A stretch of 64,000 nucleotides of DNA from Methanothrix sp. (GCA_963682135.1 OY821645.1:1600001-1664000), one strand, 5' to 3'; counted from the first letter of the stretch, positions 9,332 through 36,761 are shown. The notes: generated by a model not told the origin, from the sequence alone. Made by a program: numbers and translations.

Positions 9332-9339
9332 GCTGCAAA

Positions 9340-9545: not shown

Positions 9546-9558
9546 CACTATACTATGC

Positions 9559-13585: not shown

Positions 13586-13592
13586 TTTATAT
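13586..13592 (+). promoter_or_regulatory. TATA box of the tRNA-Lys/tRNA-Trp pair
   Basis: TTTATAT preceded by CGAAA (BRE-like), ~22 bp upstream of the tRNA 5' end. Confidence 0.55.
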
Positions 13593-13614
13593 GGCATCAA
13601 CATTGGGAGAGTCC

Positions 13615-13688
13615 GGGCCGGTAGCTTAGTCAGGCAGAGCGAAAGGCTCTTAACCTTTAGGTCGGGGGTTCAAATCCCTCTCGGCCCG
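13615..13688 (+). tRNA. tRNA-Lys(CTT)
   Basis: Acceptor GGGCCGG/TCGGCCC, anticodon arm AAAGG-CT-CTT-AA-CCTTT, T-loop GTTCAAATC. Confidence 0.95.
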
Positions 13689-13701
13689 CTTTAAAACAAC
13701 C

Positions 13702-13909
13702 GGGGCTGTGGCCTAGTCAGGTAGGGCGATGGGCTCCAGCGGTATAATTTGATGATGAGCAACGGGTCTACTGAGATCTCTCGACGGGGAGGTCGTTGAT
13801 GATCCGTTGGAGCACTGAAATGAGCTGTTATCAGCCACCGATTTCCGGCTGTATGCACTTCAGTATCGGAGATACCCGTCGATCGTGAGTTCGAATCTCA
13901 CCAGCCCCA
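13702..13909 (+). tRNA. tRNA-Trp(CCA) with ~134-nt intron at 37/38
   Basis: Acceptor GGGGCTG/CAGCCCC, ATGGG-CT-CCA-G[intron]A-CCCGT, T-arm GTGAG-TTCGAAT-CTCAC. Confidence 0.92.
13740..13873 (+). ncRNA. Intron-encoded box C/D guide RNA of pre-tRNA-Trp
   Basis: TGATGA / CTGA / TGATGA / CTGA boxes; guides ACGGGTCT and TGGAGC complementary to the tRNA anticodon arm. Confidence 0.88.
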
Positions 13910-13942
13910 CCTATTTATTTTTATATCTTCCATTTTGCTCGC

Positions 13943-15013
13943 TGTAGAGTCCTAAAAGCTTGGCATTTATATACTCAAGCACTTCAAGGCGGCATGGGCA
14001 AGGGCAGAAAGAACAAAGTTTTAAAGCTGACCGCTGCCAAGGTTAACTACATAATCCGAAAAAAAACCAATAACATCAGCTCTAAAATCATTGCTGAAGA
14101 TATAAAGGTTAGTATCCGCACAGTAAATCGTGTCTGGGGACACTGGATGAAGAATAAGGAGCCATTGGCACCAAAAAAGTTCGGGCGCCCAAAGAAGAGT
14201 CTTGGCGAGTCAGACGTTAATCTAATTCTTGAAATCCACAAAGAGCAAAATTCCGGCGCAAGGCTTATCGAGAAAATAATTGAACAAAGATATGGCAGAC
14301 ATATTCCGCATAACGCGATCCATCAAGTCCTTCTTGAAAAAGGTTTGGCCAATGAGGATAAACAAAAAAAGAAACGTAGGAAGCCTTGGATAAGATACGA
14401 ACGAAAGCACAGTCTCACCGCAGTTCATCTTGATTGGCACACCAGTCGATTCAATGGCAAAGAGGTCTGCGTGGTTCTTGATGACAGCTCTCGATTCATT
14501 CTTGCAGGCGGAGAATTTTCTGCTGCAACTACCGATAACAGCATAGCGCTTGTAAGAAGAGCGATTGATGATTTTGGAGAGATTCGGAAAATCAAAGAGG
14601 TGATCACAGATCATGGATCGCAATTCTTTGCCAACAAGTCTGACAAAAACGGGGAGTCAGAATGTGCTTTCGGACTATTCCTGGCGGATAACAAGATAAA
14701 ACATATCCTAGCGCGAGTCAAGCATCCTCAGACCAATGGCAAAATCGAAAAATGGTTTCATACTTACGAGAAAAGCAGGAAATTGTTTGATGATTTTGAC
14801 AAATTTTTGAATTGGTACAACTCAATAAGGTATCATGAAAGTCTTGAGGAAAAACACTATCTTCAGACGCCAGAAGATGCTTTTTGGTCTAGATTGCCAA
14901 ACGGCTGTAAGTTGAATTTATTCCTGTCTCGAATGGAGAGAGATTTTAATGCAGCTAGGTAGATTTAAAAAGAATCGCGGGGTATATAAATGCCAAAGAT
15001 TCGGGACTCTACA
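13943..15013 (+). mobile_element. IS481-family insertion sequence, complete
   Basis: Termini TGTAGAGTCC...TTGGCATTTATATAC / GTATATAAATGCCAA...GGACTCTACA; flanked by direct repeat CTTCCATTTTGCTCGC (13927-13942, 15014-15029). Confidence 0.92.
13994..14962 (+). CDS. IS481-family DDE transposase
   Basis: N-terminal HTH; HLDW, LDDSSR, TDHGSQF, PQTNGKIE. Confidence 0.92.
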   Translation: MGKGRKNKVLKLTAAKVNYIIRKKTNNISSKIIAEDIKVSIRTVNRVWGHWMKNKEPLAPKKFGRPKKSLGESDVNLILEIHKEQNSGARLIEKIIEQRYGRHIPHNAIHQVLLEKGLANEDKQKKKRRKPWIRYERKHSLTAVHLDWHTSRFNGKEVCVVLDDSSRFILAGGEFSAATTDNSIALVRRAIDDFGEIRKIKEVITDHGSQFFANKSDKNGESECAFGLFLADNKIKHILARVKHPQTNGKIEKWFHTYEKSRKLFDDFDKFLNWYNSIRYHESLEEKHYLQTPEDAFWSRLPNGCKLNLFLSRMERDFNAAR

Positions 15014-15075
15014 CTTCCATTTTGCTCGCCACAGCGTTTAAATATCCTCTGCGCGGTCCCTTGAAGGGTGCCGAG

Positions 15076-15384
15076 ATGTATAGGGATATCCTCACCATGT
15101 GCTGGTCAATTAAAGAGGTTAATAAGAACCTCACCGACAGGAAGTCGACATCCGACTTCTCCATAAGATACCTAAAAAACGCATGCTCTGTTCTGGCAGA
15201 ACTGATGCGAAAGATGAGCAAAACCATGCCCGATGAGGCCCTCAATGTTGTCGATAAGATGGGCAAAAAGAAGAGCATTGCACTGCATGAAGTGGCAGAT
15301 ATGCTTTATGACCCTCGAAAGATAGTGGAATTAAACCTGATCGACAATATTAGCCGATGGGCAAAAGCTCGCATGACCGCCTGA
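15076..15384 (+). CDS. Hypothetical protein
   Basis: 102-aa ORF with GGGTG RBS-like element, upstream TTTAAATA and downstream T-tract. Confidence 0.65.
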   Translation: MYRDILTMCWSIKEVNKNLTDRKSTSDFSIRYLKNACSVLAELMRKMSKTMPDEALNVVDKMGKKKSIALHEVADMLYDPRKIVELNLIDNISRWAKARMTA

Positions 15385-15614
15385 CGCTCAGAACGAACAC
15401 GAAACACAGGAGCGTCTTTTTCTTTAGATATTTTTGCGCGCCTCAGAACTCATAGGGCTCATCATAGCATCAGAGCATGCTGTATCATCATCGGCGTCGC
15501 TATTCTGGCTACGTGCCCCGTCTTTCTAACAACGATATCGGCTTTATCAATTTATCCGTGGTCCTCCGGCCTTAGGACAAGTTTGATCTGGCAAGCACTC
15601 TTGAGCGCAGGAAT

Positions 15615-16469
15615 ATGGTGCGTTTAGGAGTGCACGTTTCCGTTGCAGGAGGCGTAGATCTAGCAGTATCTCGTGCTCGCGAAAAAGGCTGTGACGCATT
15701 TCAGATCTTCTCTTCCAATCCGCGTAAATGGAGAACAAATCCCATTCCCTACGAATCAGCAAAGCGATTTATTGCCCTGCAAAGGCAGTATGGCATCTTT
15801 CCGGCGGTTGACCACATGCCCTATCTTCCTAACCTTGCCTCTGCAAACGATGAGGTTTACACTAAATCGGTGCAGTCCCTCGCGAAGGAACTGGAACGAT
15901 GTCAGGTTTTAGGTATACCGTATCTTGTAACTCATATGGGAAGTCACATGGGCAGTGGTCGGAAGAGCGGGCTTGCCAGGATTGCAGGCGCATTGCAGAC
16001 CGTCTTTTCGAAGTGCGAAAGCGATACCATCCTGCTCTTGGAGAACAGCGCGGGTACAAATAACAGCATGGGTAGCACTTTTTCGGATGTTGCTGCCGTC
16101 TTAGAATCCCAGCCATCCAATCATCATCGTTTGGGTGTATGCCTGGACACTTGCCATCTTCATGCAGCTGGATATGATTTACGTACCTCTTCAGCTCTGC
16201 AGGCAACGCTGGATCAGTTCGATGATTGCATTGGGCTGGAGAGACTTAAGCTCATTCATCTCAACGATTGCCGAGGCGCCATGGGCTCTCATCTGGATCG
16301 GCATGAGCATATCGGCCTCGGGCTGATAGGTGAAGAAGGCTTTCGCGCCATTCTTTGCCATCCCATTCTTGCCGATCTGGCCATGATCCTGGAGACGCCG
16401 TTGGATGCTCGCCGGGATGATAGAGGGAATCTGGAAGTAGCGAGGCATCTCGCCTCAGGGATAAAATAG
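15615..16469 (+). CDS. nfo: Endonuclease IV
   Basis: LGVHVS, HMPYLPNL, LLENSAG, CLDTCH, HLND, DRHEHIG, ILETP. Confidence 0.93.
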   Translation: MVRLGVHVSVAGGVDLAVSRAREKGCDAFQIFSSNPRKWRTNPIPYESAKRFIALQRQYGIFPAVDHMPYLPNLASANDEVYTKSVQSLAKELERCQVLGIPYLVTHMGSHMGSGRKSGLARIAGALQTVFSKCESDTILLLENSAGTNNSMGSTFSDVAAVLESQPSNHHRLGVCLDTCHLHAAGYDLRTSSALQATLDQFDDCIGLERLKLIHLNDCRGAMGSHLDRHEHIGLGLIGEEGFRAILCHPILADLAMILETPLDARRDDRGNLEVARHLASGIK

Positions 16470-16847
16470 CTTCTCGATGACCAGCATCAAAGCGTTATTG
16501 GAGATGGGCTTGACCAGGTAGCTGCCCGCCCCCAGATCGTAGCTCTTCTGGATATCTTGATCCTCATTTGATCCGGTAAGAATGACCACGGGTATCTCCC
16601 GAAGATTATCATCTTTCTTTATGCGGGTAAGAAGATCTATGCCGCTGATATCGGGTAGATTGATGTCCAGCAAGATCAGTTGGGGCAAATCTGCTTTGCT
16701 CCTATTTTGCAGAGCTGCAAGGGCTTCTTTACCGCTGGAGGCAATAATTAGACCACTATTCAGCTTATTGTGCAATAATACGCGCTTTGTTACGGCTGCA
16801 TCCTCAAGATTGTCCTCAACCAGCAGTATCCTTATTTCTAAGTCCAT
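16455..16847 (-). CDS. Single-domain response regulator (CheY-like)
   Basis: ILLVEDN, LILLDINLP, VILT, YLVKP; GGTGA RBS before MDLEIR. Confidence 0.9.
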   Translation of the reverse strand: MDLEIRILLVEDNLEDAAVTKRVLLHNKLNSGLIIASSGKEALAALQNRSKADLPQLILLDINLPDISGIDLLTRIKKDDNLREIPVVILTGSNEDQDIQKSYDLGAGSYLVKPISNNALMLVIEKLFYP

Positions 16848-17152
16848 AGATTCACCTGGGGCCATTTGCCCACTCTTCCCCGTTAACATCATTAAAGCCA
16901 TGATGTCGTTGCAACTACCCACAAAAATAGTTTTCCCACTGATCGGAGTCTCTCATTCTTATCGACACCCCTTGCGATCAACCCTGTATCTCAATCCGGT
17001 GCATGCAACCATCTTCGTTCAAATTCCATACATCTTATGAAATTATGAATATTTAACACCTGCAGTGGTACTGATTTTCAATCAGGGGCACGTCTTTGAT
17101 GGAGTATGATCCTCGTTCATTCTTATCTTTATTTTGAGTGAGATGAATCCGC

Positions 17153-18076
17153 TTAGGTTTTATCCTCCAGGCTTCTTTTTACGCGCCCACTGGTGAGAAG
17201 GGCAACCCGGCTCAGGGGCACGTCTGCCTCCAGATCATAGCCCAGGGCCTCACCCAAGGCACGAGCGAATTCCAGGATCTCGTAGTGCTGCGGCATGGCC
17301 TCTCTTTCCAGGCGGTCTCGGGAGCGGCCCAGGTGCATGTAGGCTTTCACCTCTACGAAGTCCGGCTCGGCCTTCGCGATTAGGCGGGCGTAGTCCTCCG
17401 GACGTTCCATATTCAGGCCGCGAGCAAGAGTCATGCGGATCACACTACGGCTACGGTGTTGGCTGATGATCTCCAGGCTCTCCTGGATTCTTTGCCAGAA
17501 CGCGGCCGCTGGCCGGCAGACCCGCCGGTACATTTCTTCGTCGGGAGCATTGAGGCTCAAGTAGAGCTGCGTCGGCTGCAGCTGCGCCAGTACCTCTGGA
17601 TTTGTGGCATTGCTCACCACAAATGAGGTCATGCCTCTCTTGCGTATCAGACCGAGAAGCTCTTTCAGATAAGGATAAAGGGTCGGCTCGCCCATGAGGG
17701 AGAGGGCCACATGCCTGGGCTCGCGCGCCTCAGCGAGCCTTGCCGGGTCCGTGGTCTTGGCTCCGCCGTAGCCGGAGAGAAACTTCATCTGGCCGAGTAG
17801 GATGCCTTCCAGCAGTTCTGCCGGCTCCAAAGGTTCAGTCCCGGGCAGCGGATCGTCTATCGGCCTCCAGCAATGCAGGCATTGGTGGTTGCACTCCAGG
17901 GTGGGCGTCATCTGTACGCAGCGATGACTGGAGATGCCATAGAAGTGGTGCTTGTAGCACTGGTCCCCGCCTCGCATGGCTCGGCTCAGCCAGAGGCAGG
18001 GCTTGACGGCTCCGCCGCCGACCAGGTGGTAGCCCTGGCGGGCGAGGGTCTGTGTAACTTGATTCTCAGATTGCAT
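17153..18076 (-). CDS. taw1: 4-demethylwyosine synthase Tyw1/Taw1 (radical SAM)
   Basis: VKPCLW, CYKHHFYGISSHRCVQMTP, CNHQCLHCWR, GEPTLYP, VEVKAYMHLG. Confidence 0.93.
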   Translation of the reverse strand: MQSENQVTQTLARQGYHLVGGGAVKPCLWLSRAMRGGDQCYKHHFYGISSHRCVQMTPTLECNHQCLHCWRPIDDPLPGTEPLEPAELLEGILLGQMKFLSGYGGAKTTDPARLAEAREPRHVALSLMGEPTLYPYLKELLGLIRKRGMTSFVVSNATNPEVLAQLQPTQLYLSLNAPDEEMYRRVCRPAAAFWQRIQESLEIISQHRSRSVIRMTLARGLNMERPEDYARLIAKAEPDFVEVKAYMHLGRSRDRLEREAMPQHYEILEFARALGEALGYDLEADVPLSRVALLTSGRVKRSLEDKT

Positions 18077-18184
18077 TCCAGGTGAAAAAAGAATATTCGC
18101 AGATATATAGCTAGTGTATCCGGGTGTTGTGCCTTTCCTATATAGCAAAGAATAAGATCCAACAGTCGCAAAGGCGCTACTAAG

Positions 18185-19675
18185 ATGCTCTGGCGATCTC
18201 TTGCATTGACGGCCGTTGTGGCGATAGTGGCTGTCTGCGTATCCAGCGCCCAGCAGGTTATCCCAGCTTCGGAGATAATAGCAGAATTAGCTGGCAATGA
18301 GCCCATTTATTACGATGGCGTTTCCATCTCCGGCGACCTGGATCTTCGCTTGCTTCCTGGTGCGCGGGTTTCCAACTCCTTCGCGCTTACCAACTCATCC
18401 CTCGTCAACGCCTCCTTTTCCGGCGTCACCTTTGCGAAGGAGGCAGTCTTCTGGGGCAGCACCTTCGCCAACGCCAGCTTTGAGAAAGCCAGCTTTCTGG
18501 GCCAGGCCGACTTCGCGAACACCAGCTTTGCCAACGCCAGCTTTTCCTCTGCCTCCTTCGAGGAGCCTGCTCTCTTTGACGAGGCGATCTTTCGGGACAA
18601 TGTGAGCTTTGAGGATGCACTCTTCGCCAAGGACGCCTTCTTTAGCCAGGCCCTATTCTCGAAAAATGCCTACTTCAATTACTCCGATTTCGCCTCGTAC
18701 TCTTATTTCCCGGCGGCGCAGTTTCTGGGTGATGCTCTCTTCTCGGACGTCGATTTTTCGGGTGCCCTGGACTTTTCCGCCGCGACGGTCGCCGGGCGGG
18801 CCAACTTCTTCCAGTCCCGCTTCAATAGCGCCGGCTTTTCCAATGCAGTATTTTACGGCCCAGTCCACTTCGGCCTGGCCAGCTTCTCCGGCCTCTCCTC
18901 CTTTGGCGAAGCAGTCTTTGCCGATGAGGCGAATTTTAATCTGGCCCGCTTTTCCCAGGCAGCCTACTTCTCGGGAGCTGAGTTTCGGGGGCTTGCCCTC
19001 TTCGGCCTGACCAAATTCGAAGACATCGCCAGTTTGCAGAACGCCAGGTTCGATGATGATCTCAATTTCAAAGGAGGCTCTATCTCCACCATCCTTTTGG
19101 ATAAGGCAGAATTCTCCAGGAATTCTCGCATTATCCTGAACGACACCGACTTTGCTCGCTTCAAAGCCCACTGGAATGAGATAGAAAAACATGTGGTTTG
19201 GGACCCGGGGGCCTATCTGGCGCTTGTCAATAATTACCACGGCCTGGGTTGGTCAGCAGACGAAGACGACTGCTACTATCAATACCGAAGCCAGAGTCAG
19301 GCCGCAAAGCAATGGGGCTGGTCCAAGATCATCGACATCCTGGCCTGGCTATCCTGCGGCTACGGGGTGCGCCCTAGCTATGCTGTGCTCTGGTCGCTCA
19401 TGACCATACTGGCTTTTGGGCTCTTATTTTGGAGAGGGGATGGTATCCGTCGCTCTGCCAAGCCGCTCTATGAGCCCGCAGAAGTAGACCGCCTGCCCGA
19501 ACATGTCACATTGCGTAACGCCCTCTTCTTCAGCACCATGGTTTTTCTCTCTCAGGGGCCTATCGACTTTCTGCCCGTGGGCAAAAACAGATATTACGTC
19601 ATCCTGGAAGGAATTTTGGGCTGGCTGCTGCTGGCGCTCTTCCTGGTGACCCTGGGCCGAGTCATGATCCGGTAA
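18185..19675 (+). CDS. Secreted pentapeptide-repeat protein with C-terminal 2TM/pore-like membrane domain
   Basis: Signal peptide; (A/V)xFxx repeats; CGYGVRP-TM, LFFSTMVFLSQG, EGILGW-TM. Confidence 0.85.
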   Translation: MLWRSLALTAVVAIVAVCVSSAQQVIPASEIIAELAGNEPIYYDGVSISGDLDLRLLPGARVSNSFALTNSSLVNASFSGVTFAKEAVFWGSTFANASFEKASFLGQADFANTSFANASFSSASFEEPALFDEAIFRDNVSFEDALFAKDAFFSQALFSKNAYFNYSDFASYSYFPAAQFLGDALFSDVDFSGALDFSAATVAGRANFFQSRFNSAGFSNAVFYGPVHFGLASFSGLSSFGEAVFADEANFNLARFSQAAYFSGAEFRGLALFGLTKFEDIASLQNARFDDDLNFKGGSISTILLDKAEFSRNSRIILNDTDFARFKAHWNEIEKHVVWDPGAYLALVNNYHGLGWSADEDDCYYQYRSQSQAAKQWGWSKIIDILAWLSCGYGVRPSYAVLWSLMTILAFGLLFWRGDGIRRSAKPLYEPAEVDRLPEHVTLRNALFFSTMVFLSQGPIDFLPVGKNRYYVILEGILGWLLLALFLVTLGRVMIR

Positions 19676-19762
19676 TACATAATTTGGCAGGGCAAATACA
19701 AAAGTGGTGACTTCCTCCCTTACCCAACGCTATAAATCCTGGGCCATCTTTGCATTGGACCA

Positions 19763-27973: not shown

Positions 27974-29218
27974 TCAGAGCACGAATAGGGAGACGAGCCC
28001 CACTACTATCGTTGGCAGGAAGATCAAAGCCATCTTGTTGCCAAACTCTCTTGTCCCCAGCACATAAGCTATGCAGAGCTTGACGAGAGTATTGGTTATA
28101 GCGGCCAGGATGATGGTGGTAACGGCCACGGAGGGAACGACAGTCGACTTAGCCAGAGAGGCCATGGTGAGAGCAATGGCGTCGACATCAGCCAGACCGG
28201 AGACCACGCCAGTAGCATAAATTCCTGCATCGCCGAAGTAGACATTGGCCAACTTGGAGATGACGAGCACAAAGGCGAAGAAAGCCCCAAATTTCAGGGC
28301 CGGCACAATGCGAAATGGATCTTTCACCTTCACATCTCTTCCCAGCGGGGCGTTCTTTCTTACCAGCATAAAGGCCAGCGCTGCGCCCACTAGCGTCATG
28401 AGCAACAGGTAGGGCAGAAGGGCGAAGAAGAGATCTCTGTTTACTAACAGTACTATGAAGAGAATTCTCGGGAACATGGTGCAGCTCGCGATGGCCGTGG
28501 CGAAGACGGCGGAAGGCAAAATCTCGTGGTTCTCTCTAACTTCTGCGGCCATAGATGAGGTGACGGCAGTACTGGAAACCAGGCCGCCCAGGATTCCCGT
28601 AATGCCGAGCCCCCTCTCTGCACCCAGGATGCGAATCGCGATGTAGCCCGCATAGCCTATGAGGCTGACCAGCACCACGAAGAGCCAGATCTGGCGGAGG
28701 TTGAGCACACCCCAGGGGCCCAGAGGCGTCTGTGGCAAGAGCGGGTAGATGACCAGGGCGATTATGCCCATCTTGAGGGTATCGAGCAGATCCGTCTCGC
28801 TCAGCACTTCTACGTAGTGATGAGTAATGGTTCGCGTGGCCAGGACCCAGGTGGTGATAATTGCCAGGGCTACAGCCAGCAGAATGCTATCGGGAAAGCC
28901 GGAGAGCATTCCCAGGGCAAAGGTGACTACTGCCGCCACGGCTGCTGTAAAATCGACTCTGCCCAGAGTGCTGATGGATGACGCATATCCTACGGCCACA
29001 AGGACGGTGAAGGTGGCCATGGACGCAATGGCAAAGCCGGGGCCGAAATGGACGGCCAGGGTGGAACATAGCGATCCCAGCAGGGCAATCAAGACGAAGG
29101 TGCGCAGTCCCGCCACGCCCCGGACCTTATCCTCAACCAGACGGCGCTGGCGCTCTGTGCCGATGAGGGCGCCAATGAGCAGAGCGACGAGAAATGGGTA
29201 GATATCGGCAAAGTCCAT
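27974..29218 (-). CDS. MgtC/SapB family membrane protein (DUF4010)
   Basis: IGTERQ, AGLRTF, GGLVSSTAVT, SGLADVDA, NTLVK. Confidence 0.88.
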   Translation of the reverse strand: MDFADIYPFLVALLIGALIGTERQRRLVEDKVRGVAGLRTFVLIALLGSLCSTLAVHFGPGFAIASMATFTVLVAVGYASSISTLGRVDFTAAVAAVVTFALGMLSGFPDSILLAVALAIITTWVLATRTITHHYVEVLSETDLLDTLKMGIIALVIYPLLPQTPLGPWGVLNLRQIWLFVVLVSLIGYAGYIAIRILGAERGLGITGILGGLVSSTAVTSSMAAEVRENHEILPSAVFATAIASCTMFPRILFIVLLVNRDLFFALLPYLLLMTLVGAALAFMLVRKNAPLGRDVKVKDPFRIVPALKFGAFFAFVLVISKLANVYFGDAGIYATGVVSGLADVDAIALTMASLAKSTVVPSVAVTTIILAAITNTLVKLCIAYVLGTREFGNKMALIFLPTIVVGLVSLFVL

Positions 29219-29352
29219 TGTGCGTTTTTTGTTATTCACTGGTTAATAGCCTTTGCCAGGTCGATAGTGTGGCTAAAGTCATCCTTCGGTTCTTAACCAA
29301 AGTTGGACATCGGCCAAGCTTTTAAAGCGATGCGCATCATTCTCCAGTCAAT

Positions 29353-30015
29353 ATGGACCGGCAAAAAGTTGCGAGCTGCATTTCCCTTCTGGAGGAGCAA
29401 TACGGCATACCCCACGCGGATGAGAGGGACCCAGTGGATCTGCTGGTCATGACCATCCTCTCCCAGAACACCAGCGATACCAACAGCCTGCGGGCCTTTG
29501 CCCACCTGAAAAGCGCTTTTAGCGATTATGAGATGGTCCTCGTCGCCCCGGATGAAGCGCTGGCAGACAGTATTCGAGCCGGGGGCCTGGCAGAGATAAA
29601 GGCGCGGCGCATAAAGGAGGCGCTATTCAGGATTAAGCAGGATGCTGGTACCATCTCTCTCTTCTTCCTGGCAAATATGGAGCCGGACGGGGCCATGGCA
29701 TATCTGCTATCCTTGCCCGGCGTGGGGCCCAAGACAGCGTCCGTGGTTCTCCTCTTCGCCTTTTCCATGCCTTTCCTGCCGGTGGACACGCATGTTTATC
29801 GCGTCTCGCGCCGGTTGGGGCTGCTATGTGAGGATGTCAGGCTGGAGAAGGCGCAGCCTATTTTGGAGCAGATAGTTCCGGTGAAGAAGTATCTTTCTCT
29901 GCATCTGAACTTGATCGCGCACGGCAGGCTCATTTGCCGGGCGCGAGGTCCCAGGCATGAAGAGTGCGTCTTGCGAAATTGTTGTGATTATTATTTGCAG
30001 GGCCAAAAGCCTTAA
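29353..30015 (+). CDS. nth: Endonuclease III / HhH-GPD glycosylase
   Basis: ILSQNT, LPGVGPKTA, VDTHV; FCL motif partly degenerate (CRARGPRHEECVLRNCC). Confidence 0.85.
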   Translation: MDRQKVASCISLLEEQYGIPHADERDPVDLLVMTILSQNTSDTNSLRAFAHLKSAFSDYEMVLVAPDEALADSIRAGGLAEIKARRIKEALFRIKQDAGTISLFFLANMEPDGAMAYLLSLPGVGPKTASVVLLFAFSMPFLPVDTHVYRVSRRLGLLCEDVRLEKAQPILEQIVPVKKYLSLHLNLIAHGRLICRARGPRHEECVLRNCCDYYLQGQKP

Positions 30016-30043
30016 ATGATAGTAAAAACCACCCCCAATCCGC

Positions 30044-30118
30044 GCTCCTGTAGTGTAGCTCGGCCAATCATGAAGGACTCTCACTCCTTCGACTCGGGTT
30101 CAAATCCCGACGGGAGCA
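30044..30118 (+). tRNA. tRNA-Glu(CTC)
   Basis: Acceptor GCTCCTG/CGGGAGC, AAGGA-CT-CTC-AC-TCCTT, GTTCAAATC. Confidence 0.95.
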
Positions 30119-30259
30119 TCTGTTTAACAAAGAAATACAAGGATTTTATTTGGGCAATGGAAATTATATTCGGGTCCTTTACTTATAAGCGGGATGACTC
30201 AGAGCAAATATGATTTTAGCACATCAGAATCGCCCTTTTCATAAGAAACGTGAATGAAA

Positions 30260-30649
30260 TCATTGTCCAAGTCGCATCCATAACGATTCCGCCTTGATCA
30301 GCCGGGCCTTCTGCATGGCCTCGGCTAGGCTCATCGTCTTGCAGGACCCCAGGTACACCTTGCGGACCTTTTCTCCTTCCCGCCAGCCTGCTATCCACCG
30401 CCCGTATTTCCTCTCGCCCTTTTTGGTCTGCTTGATAATGCAGTCCTCCCACACGGTGATATCTTCCAGCCTGGCTGCGTCCTCCAGCTCCGTGGCCTGC
30501 TCATGCAGCCTGGCCGCTTCGGCCTGTCTCTCTCCGGCCAGTTGGGCCGCGCCTTCGATGCCTTCCAGCGCCCTTGATTCCCAGGTGAGTTCGCTTGCTC
30601 TCTGTTTCAGTTCCTTTGCTTCCTTTCGGGCCGGGGTGTTGTGGGTCAT
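30260..30649 (-). CDS. Coiled-coil protein with C-terminal arm-type DNA-binding-like domain
   Basis: WIAGWREGEKVRKVYLGSCKTMSLAEAMQKA resembles the arm-binding domain of P4-type integrases. Confidence 0.65.
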   Translation of the reverse strand: MTHNTPARKEAKELKQRASELTWESRALEGIEGAAQLAGERQAEAARLHEQATELEDAARLEDITVWEDCIIKQTKKGERKYGRWIAGWREGEKVRKVYLGSCKTMSLAEAMQKARLIKAESLWMRLGQ

Positions 30650-30666
30650 GGCATCTCAACGCAGAA

Positions 30667-30715
30667 TAGTAGTGTCACATAGGATAAGCAATTTGCTGTT
30701 AATGTGACATTACTA
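30667..30715. repeat. Imperfect 49-bp palindrome upstream of the 30260-30649 gene
   Basis: TAGTAGTGTCACAT / ATGTGACATTACTA arms (13 of 14) with inner AGCAA-T-TTGCT. Confidence 0.75.
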
Positions 30716-30868
30716 AATTAAAGAAAGAGAACGGGCAGGGAAGGATCGATATCCTTAGACAGATTAATGCAGGCAAGCCGGAGGAGACCGCCACGCTCTC
30801 GGCTTCTCCGACATACACTCAGCCTACATGCTTATTCTTTAACTACTTTTCCAGATTCATAAGAAAAG

Positions 30869-31690
30869 TTGATTAATAACTCGGCTAAAGCACTTCCCAT
30901 GTGCAGAGGGCAACAGCGGTATGTTTCAAATGAGCTAACACATTTCGCAGGCGCGGGATCGACTGAAAAGGCTCAATACGATACGCTAGTTAAAATAATA
31001 AAGGAAGGCCGAATCAGTTATAAACCGCATGATAAAGTGGATGATATTCCTGAAGGCCTAAAATACGATCCTGGTTGCGCTTATACATTTAAGGGCCGTT
31101 TCAATGCAAGCAGCAATAACTTGATTTTCCCAGATATGGTCTGCTTTTGCGATATTCCTATCGGTGATCTAGGGATCCATGTCCAGAAATACAGTCCGTT
31201 TGGACTTTCCTTCCTCAAGCCCTTTTTAATCGAGAGGGGCGCAAATCCAGTATTCTATGTAGCCAAGAGTTCAGAGATCCACGGTACAACAAGAGCAGAT
31301 TATTTCGACGAACATGTAAAACTATATTTAAATAATTGCATGAATGCAAATCAGGCATTTCCATCCAGAGAACATTGTCAATCCATAAATGGATTCTTCT
31401 CTCATTTATTGTGTTACCTCAAATTTTTCGATCCTGAAAGGTCAGACGATGATAAAGACAACTTCTACATGGAACGAGAATGGCGAAGCCTCAATAATAT
31501 ACATTTTGAGATAAAAGATATTGAGCGAATAATCATTCCTAAATCATTTGCCCAAATATTTCGGAATGATATTCCTGATTATTTAGGACAGCTTACCTTC
31601 AGCGATGACCATATATCGAAACCTCCTCAACGTAATGCTAAATCCCCAGTTGTGGTATGCACGCCAGATAAGCTTCATTCAGTTCCTTGA
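30869..31690 (+). CDS. AbiGi-family protein (abortive infection associated)
   Basis: LTHF, VCFCDIP, HVQKYSPFGLSF, GANPVFY, EREWR. Confidence 0.75.
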   Translation: MINNSAKALPMCRGQQRYVSNELTHFAGAGSTEKAQYDTLVKIIKEGRISYKPHDKVDDIPEGLKYDPGCAYTFKGRFNASSNNLIFPDMVCFCDIPIGDLGIHVQKYSPFGLSFLKPFLIERGANPVFYVAKSSEIHGTTRADYFDEHVKLYLNNCMNANQAFPSREHCQSINGFFSHLLCYLKFFDPERSDDDKDNFYMEREWRSLNNIHFEIKDIERIIIPKSFAQIFRNDIPDYLGQLTFSDDHISKPPQRNAKSPVVVCTPDKLHSVP

Positions 31691-31721
31691 GGTCAATGTG
31701 GTTATAGATATCTATCGCTTC
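31638..31721 (-). pseudogene. Isolated integrase 3'-end copy 1
   Basis: Reads EAIDIYNHIDLKELNEAYLACIPQLGI*, matching the end of the 34706-35631 integrase. Confidence 0.88.
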
Positions 31722-31738
31722 CTGCTTAGGTCGATAGG

Positions 31739-32797
31739 TTATGAGCGAGTATTTTGCTCCTGCAATCCCTTTTCAATCTCACAGAAAGCGCTAATGACCT
31801 CTTCAGCTAGCTCATTTAATACATATATGCTTGCAATCCCCCAAAGTTTCAGCTTAAAAGTAGATAACATAGCTGCAGTTAATTGATACAAAGATTGGGC
31901 TGTAAGGCATGCAGGATCTGCAAAACCGAAGTCGCTTGGACCCATGAGTACATGCTCCACTCTATGCTCTAGTGGTACTCCCAGTCTAAAATCGAGGCCG
32001 TCTGGTCCCGCATGGATATTCCTGCTTGCCATTGAATAATAAGGCCGCATATAGCCAATGCCTGCCGCATCTTCTACTGCTTTGAAGCCGCTTCCTTTTT
32101 TAACCTCATTAGCCCAACCATATGGGTCCTCAAAATTTGAGCCAAATCGTTTGCACATTTCCTCTTTTTCGGCCTTCATCTCGGCTATTTTTTCCTCTGG
32201 ATACGGTTTGAATCCTAAAAGCTCGCAATGCCTTTGATATTCCTTAACGCCTTTACAGCGTGCTATAATGTCATAGCAAAGATAGCGTTCTGCAAGACCA
32301 TCTCCATGCTCGGCAATGAGCTTTGCGGTAGCATTTATTTCTTGGATTGAACGCCATCGAGCAATTGCACCATCTGGATATCCATTGAGCAGAAGCGTGA
32401 ACACTTCTGATCCGATCAGGCAGCCCCTAGCATGAAGCTTGGCCAGAGCCTGATATAAATTCTGCTTTCCTTCGGGGATTTGCGGGCCAATGTCCCTTGA
32501 TAACTTCGCTTGTGCTTCTATGCAACATGCCAGAAACACCTCAAATAAGTCAAATGCCCTTCCCCATATATTTCGGAGGCGAGCCTCAAAATTGTGCCTA
32601 TTGTCTTGTCGTCCTTTGATTATTTCTGCAGCATCATTTTTAATTCCACGCATTGTTTGTTTTGCAAGAATATTCACTACTCCATTATAGAATGTAAGAA
32701 ATTTATCTTCATATTCTCTATCGGAGATCTCTTCTAACGGTTTCCACTTTTCAAGTTCCTCTAAGAAAATTGCCATTAACTGTCCGTCTTCATCCAT
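31739..32797 (-). CDS. DUF5677-like protein
   Basis: LHARGC...LLNGYPDGAIARWRSIQE and YYSMASRNIH motifs. Confidence 0.7.
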   Translation of the reverse strand: MDEDGQLMAIFLEELEKWKPLEEISDREYEDKFLTFYNGVVNILAKQTMRGIKNDAAEIIKGRQDNRHNFEARLRNIWGRAFDLFEVFLACCIEAQAKLSRDIGPQIPEGKQNLYQALAKLHARGCLIGSEVFTLLLNGYPDGAIARWRSIQEINATAKLIAEHGDGLAERYLCYDIIARCKGVKEYQRHCELLGFKPYPEEKIAEMKAEKEEMCKRFGSNFEDPYGWANEVKKGSGFKAVEDAAGIGYMRPYYSMASRNIHAGPDGLDFRLGVPLEHRVEHVLMGPSDFGFADPACLTAQSLYQLTAAMLSTFKLKLWGIASIYVLNELAEEVISAFCEIEKGLQEQNTRS

Positions 32798-32825
32798 GCT
32801 CGATCACTCGTTTGGTATCGGTATT

Positions 32826-32948
32826 TCATATCCCCAATTGCGGTATGCAAGCTGAATAAGCTTCTTTTAATTATTTTAATTTTATATGAGTATAGATGTC
32901 TATCGCTTCCCACCTGAAGTCGCCCCTAAGTTCCTGGATGAACTCGCG
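32826..32948 (-). pseudogene. Isolated integrase 3'-end copy 2
   Basis: Reads REFIQELRGDFRWEAIDIYTHIKLK*LKEAYSACIPQLGI*. Confidence 0.88.
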
Positions 32949-33104
32949 GAAGATCACAGGCGCACTGGTATTCGTCATCATATGATCCATCAATCAAGTA
33001 CCCATCAAGTACCCACCGAGTTCAAGAAACTGCCAGAGATTATCGATTATCCAGGATTCTGATAACATCAGCACGCCCATTAATCCAGTTCCATCAAGTA
33101 CCAA

Positions 33105-34595
33105 TCAAGTAATCGTGTCTCTCGTTGGGTCGGCCCAGAAAGGAATATAGCGCATCAACTTTGGAGCCGCACCTGGGTCGTAAGGTAACACGAAGCCTGC
33201 TTCCACGGCTTCGCGTATGTAGCGCGAGGCAATCGCAATGTTTTTTTGTTCGATACCGAACCGCTCTCGGATAGAAGTGTTTGTCGTGTTTTCTCTGTTA
33301 ACGTAACGCAGGCAGGCGTGCAAATACACCGCTCTAATGCGGTCTGCTTTATCCATCTTTGTAAGCGGACGATGAGCAAACAGCACGACCCTGGTATTAT
33401 CGCATGTGGCCTCTGGCAATGGAGCCGGAAGCTGGTATAACTCCGTCTGAAACACTACCTTATCCCATCCACTGCCGCGCTCTTCACAAATTCCAAAGCG
33501 GCGCATGAGTGAGGCCAATGCCTCATTGCGCGACCGGGGTGGTGTGTCCACAAAACGATTTGTATCCACCAACGGTGCGCCGGGATTAGTGACCTCAATT
33601 CGGTCAGCAAAGATTTCTACCATCGGCCCTGCGCCTATGATAAAGAAATCCTGGTGGATGATTGCGTTAGCTACAAGTTCGCGCACTGCCAACTCAGGGA
33701 ACATCGGCACTTTCTTACGCAGAGCTTGTCCAATCAACTCATTGGATGGCAGCAAGCCATTGATATATTCAATAAGCCCTTCAAAACCACAAGCATAACC
33801 CTTCCCAAGGATATATTCCTTGATGGTTTCAATCCTATTGTTTCCCCTATACAGAATAACTCGCAAAGATTTGCGCCGAATTGCTGTAAAGCTATCTATC
33901 CTCTTTGCGAGCAAAATTGCGCCAAGGTTGGAAATATCCCAGCCGCCCGCTTCGCATGGTTCAATTAGCCGGTCATCGGCCAACGCTTCTAGAACCCCCA
34001 CACGACTCTCCGGCAAAGGACGTTTCAATAAGTCAAAATATGCCGGATAGTCCAACAGAGCAAGTACTTCCTCATCACTGATCCGCTCGGCAGCAACGCC
34101 GCTTTCGAACGGGGCTTTATCAAAAAGACGCCAGATTGCGCGCTCCTTCTCGGGAAAATCTTTGAGCCTCTTCTTATATGAACCAACACGGATGAACTCA
34201 TTTCCTTGGAATTGCACGGGTTGGCGGTAAGCGCGCTCAATCTCCAGCAACACCACAGGCAATCTATCAACCTGGATCTCGAAAAAACCGAAATGGATTC
34301 TCGGAGCCAACGCACGAAGCAGCCAATTTTCTAGCTCCTCATTACCGACTTTTGTGGTCCGCGGCGAAAACTGAGTGCCAACCACTGCATGATCATTATC
34401 ATTTAATCCCCAGATAAGGTATGCTGAGGCTTTGCCCACCAGTGCAGCCGAGTTTGACAGTGCGGATATATATTCGCCGATATCTTGCGGTTCGGCGTAA
34501 TTATGCTTGAACTCCGCCCACTCAGTCTCTTTAGGTAGCTTGGAAAGCTCTCGCACTAAGCCGACAACGTAATCAGTGCTTTGTTCAGCTCTAAT
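33105..34595 (-). CDS. AlbA_2 (Schlafen-like) domain + RecG-C/HATPase_c_4 ATP-binding protein
   Basis: ETEWAEFK, ISALSN, RELVANAIIHQD, IEVTNPG, RNEALA, CEERGSG, YIPFWA; start either GTG 34556 or ATT 34595. Confidence 0.85.
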   Translation of the reverse strand: MRAEQSTDYVVGLVRELSKLPKETEWAEFKHNYAEPQDIGEYISALSNSAALVGKASAYLIWGLNDNDHAVVGTQFSPRTTKVGNEELENWLLRALAPRIHFGFFEIQVDRLPVVLLEIERAYRQPVQFQGNEFIRVGSYKKRLKDFPEKERAIWRLFDKAPFESGVAAERISDEEVLALLDYPAYFDLLKRPLPESRVGVLEALADDRLIEPCEAGGWDISNLGAILLAKRIDSFTAIRRKSLRVILYRGNNRIETIKEYILGKGYACGFEGLIEYINGLLPSNELIGQALRKKVPMFPELAVRELVANAIIHQDFFIIGAGPMVEIFADRIEVTNPGAPLVDTNRFVDTPPRSRNEALASLMRRFGICEERGSGWDKVVFQTELYQLPAPLPEATCDNTRVVLFAHRPLTKMDKADRIRAVYLHACLRYVNRENTTNTSIRERFGIEQKNIAIASRYIREAVEAGFVLPYDPGAAPKLMRYIPFWADPTRDTIT

Positions 34596-34705
34596 GAATA
34601 TCCCTCAGGTAGTTTTCGAGACACTTGCCACTTTGGATTTGGCCATCTGCTTGCATCATTTGTCTGGAAGGTAATGTATTTTTCCTAATTTGGCTTATGA
34701 ATGCC

Positions 34706-35631
34706 CTAATAAATCCCCAACTGCAGTATACACGCCAGATAAGCCTCCTTCAACTCCTTCAAATCGATGTGGTTATACAGGTCGAATGCCTCTTTGCGGC
34801 TATCGCCCCTCAGCTCCTTAATGAACTCCCTTCACATTCCGGCCCGGAAGAGGTGAGTGCAGAACCAATGCCGGCATGCGTGGGGCGAAAAGTGGTCCTC
34901 AAGCCGCTCCGACTCTGGATTGTGTAGGCCTACGTTTTTAGCTGCTTCAGTCACAGCCCGATATACATCATTTCTGGAGATCCGATATCCCCATGTGCTC
35001 AGGAATAATGCATCCTCGTTCCGTCTGTTGATGCCTTCGCGCACTCTGAGCCATCGCCGGAGCAAATAGGCCACCTAATCATCCATGAATAACGTCCGGT
35101 TGCTTCTTTTGGCCGTGGGCTTGAGCCGGAGGGTATTTTCAACCAGGTTGACATCATCCACATCCAGGGAGAGCAGTTCACCGCGTCTCATCCCCGTCTT
35201 GAAGAACAATGCAGCATCGCTTTGCCCCTGATAGTTGGCGCAGCCTTGACCATCCGGCTGGCATCCTCGACACTGACGAGCTGCCGTGCGTGGCTATCCC
35301 CATTCTCTTTGTAACGTTTCAGGTAGCGTTTGCGGATGATCAGAACCGGATTTGATGAGATCATGCCCTCAAAGATCAGGTAATCATAGAAACTGGAAAG
35401 CGTGCTGAAATATCGCTCTATGGTCTTCTGTGATGCTCCTCGGTCCCTTCGCATGTGGCCTATGAAGCCCTTTAATGGCTCCTTGTCTTCCTGGTCGATC
35501 TCAGCACCGCGCTCGGCCATGTACGCCTTGAAGATATGCAAGACCGATTTGTAGCGAATGATAGAGTCCGGAGTCATGCCGCGAACTTCGCAGTCCTGCA
35601 GGTAGCTTTCTATCAGATCATCGGCCATCAT
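34706..35631 (-). pseudogene. Tyrosine recombinase/integrase, inactivated
   Basis: SAM-like N-domain, KTGMRRGEL, HACRHWF, ELRGD, DLYNH; frameshift near 35210, TAG at 35075-35077, TGA at 34832-34834. Confidence 0.9.
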
Positions 35632-36137
35632 ACGACCCAATGTATGTTATTATTCTCTGCCCTAATCATGCCAAAGAGCTTCAGGGTCTCCAGTTGGCCA
35701 TCAATGGCCTTGATCAGGTCTTTTTCCATCAAATCAATCCCGAGGGACTCAAGTAGCTGGAATCTGTCCACACTACCGCGCGCCTTGAGGACTTGAACAA
35801 GATCCCCACTGAGCCCTCGCATACCTGCAAAATTCGTCTCAATCCACGGTGCTGCACGATAACGTTTTAGTTCGGACTCATATCGCTCGATAAGTATGTT
35901 CTTTCTCTGGAGATCTTCCCGCAGAGTCTTGATTTCGTTTTTCAAGCCATCCAGATCACGCACGTGGCGCGGTGCCAGCTCTTCTTTCTCATCAATAACA
36001 CCGTCCACTATCGATATGATGAACTTCGAAAGGGATGTATGGGCCTTTGCTGCTAGCTTTTCCCATCTCTCCTTATGTGGCCTTGATGGATGATAGACGT
36101 AAGTATAACGGGTTATATCGGGAATTGGGTTTGTCAT
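35628..36137 (-). CDS. Hypothetical RHH-like/coiled-coil/wHTH protein translationally coupled to the integrase
   Basis: YVYHPS...KERWEKLAAKAHTSLSKFI (RHH-like), coiled coil, LETLKLFGMI; ATGA overlap with the integrase start. Confidence 0.7.
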   Translation of the reverse strand: MTNPIPDITRYTYVYHPSRPHKERWEKLAAKAHTSLSKFIISIVDGVIDEKEELAPRHVRDLDGLKNEIKTLREDLQRKNILIERYESELKRYRAAPWIETNFAGMRGLSGDLVQVLKARGSVDRFQLLESLGIDLMEKDLIKAIDGQLETLKLFGMIRAENNNIHWVV

Positions 36138-36761
36138 CGCTGTCTAGATAAACGCTATCATCTAAAGCATTTACTGAGTAGAAAATAGATCTATTCCTGA
36201 CGGGAGCATATTAGATGTTGTTGGACTACTGCTAAAAATATCGCACTTGCAGGAGTTCGCGGACGGCAATCTCTTACTCCAGAGGGAAAACGTCCCAAAG
36301 ATAGCGATTTTTTGAAGTTCGTCTCTCTTCAAGTTGTTAAAGATTATTCGATCGACTGAAATTGACCGACAGGTATATAGACTAAAGTGCACCTCGTTAA
36401 TAGGCTTCATTTGCATTGATTCAAAAAATTTGTTGAGATGTTTTTGAGAGCGCGATCGATTCTTTGAAATCGATAAAAAAGGATACATGGAATTAATGAG
36501 ATTTGGAAATGGCAGAGACGGCTTGAATAAGGCCTGCATATTCCCAGGAATGCTTGCTAAATACACAGGCAATATTAAAAGGATTTGATCATAATATTAT
36601 CTTCATTTCGTTTTAACGAAGTAGCATTCTTCTCCCAGCCTCTGCAACCGGTTGAAGTATCTCTTTGCATTAAGATGCCATCAACCAGTTTCTTTTCGGA
36701 TCCGCATCAAAGGACTTCAACCAAATCCAAGATCAGCACTTAGAAATATTTAGAGGCAAGA

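What the first reader, a model, noticed from the sequence alone, without database searches (positions are those of the whole stretch)
31638..35631. Integron-like array: defence-type cargo genes punctuated by copies of the integrase's own 3' end
Seen in sequence: reading the minus strand, the order is integrase (ends ELRGDSRKEAFDLYNHIDLKELKEAYLACILQLGIY*, stop 34706), AlbA_2/RecG-C gene, tail copy 32948-32826 (REFIQELRGDFRWEAIDIYTH...CIPQLGI*), DUF5677-like gene starting 28 bp later, tail copy 31721-31638 (EAIDIYNHIDLKELNEAYLACIPQLGI*) starting 17 bp after that gene's stop, then a convergent AbiGi-like gene. The tails are absent from the ORF track and all include the catalytic-Tyr region. They are clearly homologous but diverged, so they probably come from different members of one integrase family. 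The chromosomal att site is elsewhere (tRNA-Glu), so this is not the known SSV-type Int(N)/Int(C) split. Inference: the conserved integrase 3' end acts as an entry point through which one-gene cargo modules from related elements are stacked, one tail per cassette. That would be an archaeal functional analogue of an integron for accumulating anti-virus genes.
Basis: partly seen in the sequence, partly recalled or inferred. Interest (0 to 1): 0.88.

Follow-up and report, generated by a model that had tools for sequence, protein, structure and literature searches.

The report
Integrase-tail scars in a decayed element
A 6-kb worn-out mobile element next to a tRNA-Glu gene of an archaeon carries three defence-like genes separated by two leftover ends of related integrase genes; these look like scars of merging and decay, not parts of an integron-like capture machine.

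Summary
Window 30120-36209 is an island bounded by tRNA-Glu and a 17-nt copy of its 3' end, and it is absent from the closest relative. On the minus strand it reads: orf169, tyrosine integrase, AlbA_2/HATPase_c_4 gene, tail1, DUF5677 gene, tail2, convergent AbiGi, orf129. The integrase is itself a pseudogene (one frameshift, in-frame TAG and TGA). Tail1 has an internal TAA.

The integron reading is not supported. Across the taxonomic family, truncated copies of this integrase start at scattered positions and show no attC-like fold. They grade from full-length pseudogenes, through copies with internal deletions, to 29-residue stubs. For AlbA_2 a decay series exists:
- intact orf169-int-AlbA_2-orf129-replicase element (L081)
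- window pseudogene
- mini-integrase riddled with deletions (L083-L088)
- no integrase (G088)

Best reading (0.65): a composite of related tRNA-targeting elements, fused and trimmed by ordinary deletion. This is a known mode of island growth.

The parts
30044..30119 (+). tRNA-Glu(CUC). Its 3' end (30103-30119) is attL of the island.
   Evidence: ARAGORN and Rfam. Homology with the empty site in G059 ends at 30119. Repeat with 36193-36209.
30260..30649 (-). orf129, a backbone gene of this element family, no known domain. It lies beyond the variable slot that follows the integrase.
   Evidence: No Pfam, NCBIfam, PHROG or PADLOC match. Homologues downstream of the integrase in L043, L042, L053, L066 and L081.
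30869..31690 (+). AbiGi-like gene, convergent. Its last 17 codons read the antisense of tail2.
   Evidence: Pfam PF10899 at 1.1e-13. PADLOC AbiGi at 2e-17. Overlap read.
31638..31727 (-). Tail2: the last 29 codons plus stop of a related integrase (EAIDIYNHIDLKELNEAYLACIPQLGI*).
   Evidence: E 7e-11; residues 285-313 of 313, 83% identity.
31739..32797 (-). DUF5677 gene (352 aa), intact.
   Evidence: Pfam PF18928 at 4.8e-23. PHROG 27456. No PADLOC match. Only 3 distant homologues in the 104 other genomes of the taxonomic family, none within about 1.5 kb of an integrase.
32826..32957 (-). Tail1: the last ~40 codons of a related integrase, with an internal TAA and an AT-rich patch (32891-32864).
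   Evidence: E 6e-14; residues 271-313. Identity to L080/G088 falls at its 5' edge.
32991..33102 (-). Three copies of GGTACTTGATKG in the 3' flank of the AlbA_2 gene. Function unknown.
   Evidence: D3; 3 matches, 0.41 expected by chance. Conserved in G088 and L080.
33105..34556 (-). AlbA_2 (Schlafen-type) plus HATPase_c_4 gene (483 aa), intact.
   Evidence: Pfam. PHROG 12156. 98% identical copies in G088 and L080.
34706..35640 (-). Xer-like tyrosine integrase, a pseudogene: frameshift near 35212, TAG at 35077-35075, TGA at 34834-34832.
   Evidence: Intact relative L012. NCBIfam XerA_Arch at 2.2e-48, below its cut-off.
35628..36137 (-). orf169, the conserved partner gene immediately upstream of the integrase, overlapping its start.
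   Evidence: Homologue in 41 of 52 fetched loci, beside the integrase where I mapped both. No family match.
36193..36209 (+). attR: a 17-nt copy of the tRNA-Glu 3' end with 2 mismatches.
   Evidence: (D9). Homology of the orf169-integrase core with L012, L013 and L028 ends at 36209.

Best explanation
The island is the decayed, fused remnant of several related integrative elements of one archaeal family.

Family layout: att, orf169, Xer-like tyrosine integrase, a variable accessory slot, orf129, then a replication backbone. The family targets the 3' ends of tRNA genes.

The two tails are pseudogene stubs of integrases that belonged to other family members. Their cargo (DUF5677; AbiGi and orf129) ended up behind the resident integrase and its AlbA_2 gene.

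Proposed steps (inferred):
1. Related elements came together, either by tandem integration at the tRNA att or by recombination between a resident and an incoming relative.
2. Illegitimate deletions removed the internal att, orf169, the 5' part of each inner integrase and the replication backbone.
3. Homologous recombination inside the highly conserved integrase 3' end swapped the downstream parts at least once.

Stubs persist next to cargo for two reasons. Deletions that run on into a useful gene are lost. And the last 80 residues are by far the best conserved part of the protein, so they remain recognisable longest.

Shown: island limits, pseudogene state, scattered junctions, the decay series, the identity break at tail1. 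Inferred: the order of events and the part played by selection.
For: 1. Classical element. The 3' end of the tRNA is repeated beyond orf169 here (15 of 17 positions). It is repeated as exact 13-14-nt copies in L044, L074, L075 and L048, which share the same layout. G059 has the empty site. L074, L075 and L081 are full-size relatives of 11-14 kb or more, with a ~1100-aa replicase-like gene and a single integrase.

2. Decay is rampant. In the genus scan 150 rows were listed and 48 were not. I dropped 17 rows of <=32% identity. One search then merged the rest into 64 full-length spans (several with frameshifts or stops), 35 3' remnants, 2 5' remnants, 15 internal pieces and 1 copy with an internal deletion. 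One further 3' remnant (G070:C60) was swallowed by my merging rule, making 36.

3. Internal deletions. Copies with internal deletions are seen directly in L046, L052 and L047. L087 is a roughly 230-nt mini-integrase that keeps bits of the N-terminus, the middle and the end, lying upstream of AlbA_2.

4. Scattered junctions. The 5' limits lie at about -90, -99, -114, -119, -123, -137, -140, -160, -170, -182, -194 and -360 nt before the stop.

5. AlbA_2 series. L081 has an intact integrase, then AlbA_2, then orf129, with no tail. Its homology to the window ends at 32959, exactly where tail1 is joined. The window and L080 have a pseudogene or 3' end. L083-L088 have the eroded mini-integrase. G088 has none.

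6. Literature. Tandem integration, integrase loss and module exchange by homologous recombination are described for archaeal elements (PMC8371274, passages read). 'Fragmented integrases' in tRNA-linked islands are described for tycheposons (10.1101/2020.12.28.424599, passages read).
Against: - I found no intact tandem pair of full-length elements in any listed row, so the proposed intermediate is unobserved. Many assemblies are fragmented, and repeats break contigs.
- No internal att copy survives in the island (only 2 matches at <=3 mismatches, the two ends). No orf169 fragment lies beside any solitary tail.
- In 10 of 10 integrase-plus-truncated-copy pairs that I picked by proximity, the truncated copy lies downstream on the same strand, only 16 nt to about 2.6 kb after the stop. 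Only one opposite case exists: an internal piece 1.2 kb upstream of a full copy in G070:C101.
- 24 of 36 3' remnants start in the last 84 of 313 residues. Random single deletions would not give this polarity and skew by themselves. My account needs repeated erosion, selection for cargo and a detection bias, none of which I measured.
- The sharp identity break at the tail1 edge shows that recombination, not only deletion, shaped the array.
Confidence: 0.65

Rival explanations
1. Homology-driven stacking. The extremely conserved integrase 3' end, whether attached or solitary, acts as a portable homology patch. Recombination between a solitary tail in one element and the integrase end of a relative appends the relative's downstream cargo behind the resident cargo. 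Arrays therefore grow in the slot between the integrase and orf129. The outcome resembles an integron, but it works by general recombination without a dedicated site.
For: - Window versus L080: 97.6% in the spacer, 98.2% in AlbA_2, 97.3% in the 3' flank, then 83.3% (55 of 66) in the first part of tail1. Window versus G088: 94.6% in the flank, 80.3% in the first part of tail1, 65.2% in the rest. After the stop there is no homology.
- High-identity blocks end at the integrase stop in other comparisons. L039/L041 share 91.8% from the tRNA to the stop. The window core 34710-36209 matches L012, L013 and L028 at 78-80%.
- All 10 pairs have the truncated copy downstream on the same strand.
- Tail protein sequence is almost invariant across the family, while synonymous sites are near saturation.
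Against: - It does not explain how the first solitary tail arises. That still needs an illegitimate joint or a deletion.
- Tails in one array are only 73-88% identical over 90-180 nt, which is poor substrate for homologous recombination.
- Block ends at the stop codon are also expected simply because conservation stops there.
- Only one joint (tail1) gives direct evidence.
Confidence: 0.2
2. Integron-like site-specific capture. The family integrase recognises a site in its own 3' coding end and inserts circular one-gene cassettes there, each bringing one tail.
For: - Regular order: integrase, cargo, tail, cargo, tail.
- Short distances between genes and tails (28 and 17 nt).
- The same polarity in 10 other loci.
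- A 7-nt match (AAATCCC) between the tRNA T-loop part of att and the last codons of the tails, read. It is too short to weigh.
Against: - The 5' limits of tails are scattered.
- The tails have no stable fold: z-scores -0.83 to +2.1 for 6 strands.
- The natural att is the tRNA 3' end upstream of orf169, at least 1.5 kb from the tail.
- The intact relative scores far below the integron-integrase models: 45 bits against a cut-off of 265, and 20 against 435.
- The resident integrase is dead.
- Truncated copies include 120-170-residue pieces and copies with internal deletions, which no cassette model predicts.
- L081 carries AlbA_2 without a tail.
Confidence: 0.04
3. The stubs are kept because they work. 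Each tail supplies the promoter or 5' leader of the cargo gene that follows it, or encodes a small C-terminal peptide that modulates family integrases.
For: - DUF5677 starts 28 nt after tail1.
- Tail1 has an AT-rich patch (32891-32864) lying 67-94 nt upstream of that start. It differs from G088 at 14 of 28 positions.
- Cargo genes follow full-length integrases at 9-150 nt on the same strand in L012, L037, L044 and L074.
- Most solitary tails listed have no internal stop. One (L044) begins with ATG.
Against: - There are no expression data.
- Tail1 has a stop codon, so it is not a peptide.
- Tail2, and the tail in L039, are followed by convergent genes, not by a gene they could drive.
- The low ratio of non-synonymous to synonymous change between solitary tails is uninformative, because the parents diverged while still functional.
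Confidence: 0.1

Closest known systems
Tandem accretion and deletion of integrative elements at one att site (ICESt1/CIME model of Streptococcus thermophilus: Pavlovic et al. 2004, Bellanger et al. 2011; seen only as entries in the reference list of PMC5812530; content recalled)
   Same: Related elements that use one tyrosine integrase family pile up at a tRNA or gene 3' end. Internal recombination modules are lost, so cargo from several elements becomes one island.
   Different: In that model the internal att sites persist and allow cis-mobilisation. Here no internal att is left, and the only marks of the joints are integrase 3' stubs. The host is an archaeon.
Tycheposon islands of Prochlorococcus (bioRxiv 10.1101/2020.12.28.424599, passages read)
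   Same: tRNA-targeting tyrosine-recombinase elements carrying defence or niche cargo. [quoted passage not shown]
   Different: There the elements are separated by partial tRNAs. Here they are not. This family differs in its partner gene (orf169) and in having a fixed accessory slot between the integrase and orf129.
Archaeal integrated elements: tandem integration, integrase loss, module exchange by homologous recombination (review PMC8371274, passages read)
   Same: Classical (non-suicidal) integrase, tRNA targets, tandem integration at one locus, and module exchange explained by homologous recombination between tandem elements.
   Different: The passages I read do not mention Methanosaeta (0 occurrences of that word) and do not describe arrays of integrase 3' stubs between single cargo genes.
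Integrons (IntI, attI, attC cassettes)
   Same: A tyrosine recombinase gene next to a row of mostly single-gene, often defence-related units in one orientation, each followed by a repeated element.
   Different: The repeats here are coding remnants of integrase genes, not folded attC sites. They lie downstream of the 3' end, not at an attI beside the 5' end. Junctions are not conserved, and the integrase is not of the IntI type.
SSV-type 'suicidal' integrases (PMC7253208, abstract seen in listing; PMC8371274, passage)
   Same: Integrated archaeal elements leave C-terminal integrase fragments, Int(C), in the chromosome.
   Different: In the SSV type the att lies inside the integrase gene, and Int(N) and Int(C) sit at opposite ends of the element. 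Here att lies upstream of orf169, full-length copies persist in the integrated state, and matching N-terminal halves are almost absent (2 5' remnants against 36 3' remnants).

Membership tests
Classical tRNA-targeting tyrosine-recombinase integrative element | Tyrosine recombinase with a SAM-like N-domain and a catalytic domain (R, HxxR, Y) | tested here: met
   Pfam Phage_int_SAM_1 and Phage_integrase on the pieces. HACRHW and LYNH are visible. The intact relative L012 is 313 aa and matches XerA_Arch at 2.2e-48. The window copy is a pseudogene.
Classical tRNA-targeting tyrosine-recombinase integrative element | Direct repeat of the tRNA 3' end at the far border (attL/attR), lying outside the integrase ORF | tested here: met
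   30103-30119 and 36193-36209 match in 15 of 17 positions and are the only two matches in the window. Exact 13-14-nt copies occur in L044, L074, L075 and L048.
Classical tRNA-targeting tyrosine-recombinase integrative element | Empty site in a relative | tested here: met
   G059:C337 (L056) aligns to window 29110-30119 and then to 36348-36529.
Integron | IntI-type integrase | tested here: not met
   Integron-integrase models score 45 bits (cut-off 265) and 20 bits (cut-off 435) on the intact relative.
Integron | attC-like imperfect palindromes that fold as single strands at cassette ends | tested here: not met
   Six strands of the three tails folded as DNA gave z-scores between -0.83 and +2.10 against shuffles.
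Integron | Conserved crossover point at every cassette junction | tested here: not met
   Tail 5' limits are scattered from about -90 to -360 nt. The 3' limits coincide with the gene end, where family conservation stops anyway.
Integron | Free circular cassettes, or cassette excision | tested here: inconclusive
   Only assembled contigs of public runs could be laid, with no raw reads. One low-depth joint in a metagenome is explained by a related tail.
SSV-type suicidal integrase element | att inside the integrase ORF, splitting it into Int(N) and Int(C) at opposite ends | tested here: not met
   att lies beyond orf169. Integrated full-length ORFs are common: 64 spans.
Accreted tandem array with retained internal att sites (CIME-type) | att copies between the member elements | tested here: not met
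   No internal match to the 17-nt att at <=3 mismatches. None in L044 either.

The most novel reading that the evidence does not exclude
In this archaeal element family the near-invariant last ~40 codons of the integrase gene work as a built-in recombination handle. Solitary stubs left in the accessory slot let relatives append their own downstream cargo by recombination within the stub. Defence genes therefore pile up in one orientation behind a single integrase. This would be a homology-driven counterpart of an integron that needs no attC sites.
Probability: 0.2. Interest if true: 0.6.

Novelty: new member of a known kind. Interest (0 to 1): 0.3.

Why it matters
The finding documents, for an archaeal lineage whose mobile elements are little described, a family of tRNA-targeting elements. 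My one search for 'Methanothrix' with integrase, tRNA and integrated found 0 papers. The family has a fixed core (orf169 plus a Xer-like integrase) and one accessory slot where defence-like genes collect.

It also shows how such slots become mosaics. The practical lesson for annotation is that short, strongly conserved integrase 3' stubs mark old joints between elements, and they can be used to dissect islands. If the homology-handle idea held, it would add a simple route, needing no dedicated enzyme, by which defence genes are stacked. As it stands, the locus is an ordinary product of accretion and decay.

Tried and rejected
- T-loop mimicry. The tails end in AAATCCC, as does the T-loop part of att (read). 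This is only 7 nt, and attR itself differs there, so I dropped it.
- Internal att remnants: none.
- attC-like folding: none.
- DUF5677 behind a full-length integrase elsewhere. There are only 3 distant homologues (30-39% identity) in 104 other genomes of the taxonomic family, and none has an integrase match within about 1.5 kb. No relative turned up in the metagenome scan. The parent of the tail1-DUF5677 unit therefore remains unknown.
- Selection on solitary tails. The proportion of non-synonymous change is 0.02-0.1 and of synonymous change 0.5-1.0. This is uninformative, because the copies may have diverged before truncation.
- Excess of 3' over 5' remnants (36 against 2). I do not use this as evidence for a mechanism. 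The N-terminal half is only 35-47% identical between members, so short heads would go unseen. In addition, 9 of the 15 'internal pieces' are fragments of the same conserved region (residues 216-297) that lack the very end.
- Public runs. No RNA holder was listed. All four runs laid were assembled contigs. Parts without cover (for example X5 at 32763-33013) say nothing. One contig of X6 (depth 4.9, shorter side 32 nt, likeness threshold 90) joins 31682 to 32933. It skips 1250 nt rather than the in-register 1188. It is best read as a related tail of the G088/L080 kind that matches tail1 at its start and tail2 further on, not as excision.
I did not ask for any supplements.
- I did not check the organism's name. 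It is an archaeon, judging by C/D-box sRNAs and an intron-bearing tRNA.

Full report
**What is there.** Reading the minus strand of window 30000-36200 gives this order:
- orf169 (36137-35628)
- a tyrosine integrase (35640/35631-34706)
- an AlbA_2 plus HATPase_c_4 gene (34556-33105)
- a 123-132-nt integrase end, tail1 (32957-32826)
- a DUF5677 gene (32797-31739)
- a 84-90-nt integrase end, tail2 (31727-31638)
- a convergent AbiGi-like gene (30869-31690, + strand)
- orf129 (30649-30260)
- the 3' end of tRNA-Glu(CUC) (30044-30118, + strand)

Domain calls are from Pfam. PADLOC recognises only AbiGi, at 2e-17. AlbA_2 has only marginal PADLOC hits and DUF5677 has none.

The three integrase ends form one repeat family at 73-76% identity over 83 nt. 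They are the only close copies in the 3.04-Mb genome.

It has a frameshift near 35212, an in-frame TAG (35077-35075) and an in-frame TGA (34834-34832). The intact 313-aa relative in L012 shows the undamaged form. Tail1 has an internal TAA. The AbiGi ORF runs 52 nt into the antisense of tail2.

**Limits of the island.** The last 17 nt of the tRNA recur at 36193-36209 with 2 mismatches. These are the only two matches in the window at up to 3 mismatches. G+C falls from about 0.55 to 0.37-0.50 between them. The closest relative with this flank (G059:C337, 87% identical) goes from the tRNA end (window 30119) to window 36348 with 62 unaligned nt between, so it has the empty site. The window is archaeal: it holds C/D-box sRNAs and an intron-bearing tRNA. 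I did not check the name of the organism.

**The element family.** A 41-residue tail query finds matches in 72 of 105 genomes of the taxonomic family.
- orf169 has a homologue in 41 of 52 fetched loci, and it sits next to the integrase wherever I mapped both.
- DNA homology of the window's orf169-integrase core with L012, L013 and L028 (78-80%) runs exactly from attR (36209) to the integrase stop (34710-34713).
- The same layout recurs at tRNA-Gly (L044), tRNA-Glu (L074, L075) and tRNA-Asp (L048). In each, the tRNA 3' end faces the cargo, then comes the integrase, then orf169, then an exact 13-14-nt copy of the tRNA end.
- L074 and L075 are 13.8 and 11.4 kb. They carry one integrase, a roughly 1100-aa replicase-like gene and, in L074, small ORFs that I read by eye as HicAB-like (not searched against a family library) right after the integrase stop.
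- orf129 homologues lie a few genes downstream of the integrase in L043, L042, L066 and L081.

The family therefore has a core (att, orf169, integrase), a variable slot, orf129 and a replication backbone. Its att lies outside the integrase gene, which makes it a classical, not an SSV-type, integrase. The intact protein is Xer-like (XerA_Arch at 2.2e-48, below the cut-off) and scores far below the integron-integrase models.

**Are the tails part of a mechanism?** Four lines say no.

First, truncated copies are common and heterogeneous. In the genus scan with the intact protein 59 genomes were searched; 150 rows were listed and 48 were not. I dropped 17 rows of <=32% identity as distant Xer-like paralogues and merged the rest. 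The result was 64 full-length spans (several with frameshifts or stops), 35 3' remnants, 2 5' remnants, 15 internal pieces and one copy with an internal deletion. One more 3' remnant (G070:C60) was hidden by my merging rule, giving 36. Only 4 of the 36 3' remnants, the window's two included, share a contig with a listed full-length copy just upstream.

Second, the 5' limits differ in every independent case: about -90, -99, -114, -119, -123, -137, -140, -160, -170, -182, -194 and -360 nt from the stop. Some copies have internal deletions (L046, L052 and L047).

Third, the tails have no stable single-strand fold (z-scores -0.83 to +2.1).

Fourth, the AlbA_2 gene can be followed through a decay series. 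Among 80 metagenome loci with an AlbA_2 relative, 8 hold an integrase-family match:
- L081 is an intact element (orf169, 303-aa integrase, AlbA_2 at 91.5%, orf129, replicase-like gene) with no tail. Its homology with the window stops at 32959, exactly where tail1 is joined.
- L080 matches the window at 96% from inside the integrase end to 32893.
- L083-L088, six near-identical records, have upstream of AlbA_2 a roughly 230-nt mini-integrase made of pieces from the N-terminus, the middle and the end.
- G088 (L053) has AlbA_2 (98% as protein, with a 188-nt internal deletion) and the tail. It has no integrase at all, and homology starts 24 nt after where the stop would be.

Three observations do.

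First, polarity. In all 10 integrase-plus-truncated-copy pairs that I picked by proximity among the listed rows (76 rows were not listed), the truncated copy lies downstream on the same strand. The distance from the stop is 16 nt to about 2.6 kb. The only opposite case I saw is an internal piece 1.2 kb upstream of a full copy in G070:C101.

Second, 24 of 36 3' remnants start within the last 84 residues.

Third, and most telling, identity between the window and L080 is 97.6% in the spacer, 98.2% in AlbA_2 and 97.3% in its 3' flank. It then drops to 83.3% (55 of 66) in the first part of tail1. Against G088 the figures are 94.6% in the flank, then 80.3% and 65.2% in the tail, with nothing after the stop. 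The junction between flank and tail is shared by the three, so it arose once. The tail and everything downstream were later exchanged by a crossover or conversion at the tail. Likewise L039 and L041 share 91.8% from the tRNA to the integrase stop and nothing beyond it.

**How I put this together.** The simplest account is accretion and decay. Related elements meet at one locus, by tandem integration or by recombination between a resident and an incoming relative. Deletions then remove the inner att, orf169, the 5' integrase part and the backbone.

Only composites that keep the outer core and the useful cargo persist. That would explain why the intact copy is the outer, upstream one, and why stubs hug the cargo that follows them. 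Repeated erosion between two retained units leaves the last piece next to the retained gene. The extreme conservation of the last 80 residues makes those pieces the ones we can still detect.

These last points are inference. I did not observe an intact tandem pair. Tandem integration, integrase loss and homologous module exchange are described for archaeal elements (PMC8371274, passages). Fragmented integrases in tRNA islands are described for tycheposons (preprint 10.1101/2020.12.28.424599, passages).

I keep at 0.2 the bolder reading that the conserved integrase end is a recurrent homology handle that stacks cargo. I put a true site-specific, integron-like system at 0.04.

**Limits.**
- Most genomes are fragmented assemblies.
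- The parent of the tail1-DUF5677 unit was not found.
- Public runs gave contigs only, with no RNA holder listed.

Noticed in passing
window 32864-32891: AT-rich patch inside tail1. It differs from the G088 copy at 14 of 28 positions and lies 67-94 nt upstream of the DUF5677 start. It may be a promoter made from the stub.
   Followed up: partly
window 32991-33102: Three copies of GGTACTTGATKG in the 3' flank of AlbA_2 (0.41 expected by chance), conserved in G088 and L080. Function unknown.
   Followed up: partly
window 13702-13909 and 15441-15495: Rfam calls a tRNA spanning 208 nt that contains a C/D-box sRNA (sR3, 13748-13820), i.e. an intron-borne guide RNA. A second C/D-box sRNA (sR41) lies nearby.
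   Followed up: no
G000:C1:909780-910019 and 912406-912951 (same genome, outside the window): Two pieces of a paralogous integrase (residues 55-137 and 133-313, 46-51% identity) lie 2.4 kb apart on one strand. This may be an integrase interrupted by an insertion.
   Followed up: no
L087 5600-5840 (metagenome locus; the same in L083-L088): A mini-integrase of about 230 nt that keeps bits of the N-terminus, the middle and the C-terminal end, just upstream of an AlbA_2 gene. It is a clear product of several internal deletions.
   Followed up: yes
L039 8696-10313 and L041 4592-6209: The tRNA-Leu, orf169, integrase core is 91.8% identical between two species and the identity stops at the integrase stop codon. 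Each is followed by different DNA and then by a solitary tail whose 5' limit lies near -160 to -180 nt.
   Followed up: partly
L066 (G055:C65) 1010-19700: A 19-kb island at tRNA-Glu with one integrase, two diverged orf129 copies (68% and 46%) and a replicase-like gene matched only over residues 503-976. This looks like another composite in decay.
   Followed up: partly
L052, L053, L046 (tRNA-Gly locus of G071, G088, G050): The three species share both chromosomal flanks of a tRNA-Gly island (85-95% identity). The island contents differ, and none has an intact integrase of this family.
   Followed up: partly
window 35628-36137: orf169 overlaps the integrase start. Its N-terminus (YTYVYHPS...ERWEKLAAKAHTSLSKFIISIV) looks like a ribbon-helix-helix DNA-binding fold followed by a coiled coil. 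This resemblance is recalled and untested; no library matched.
   Followed up: no
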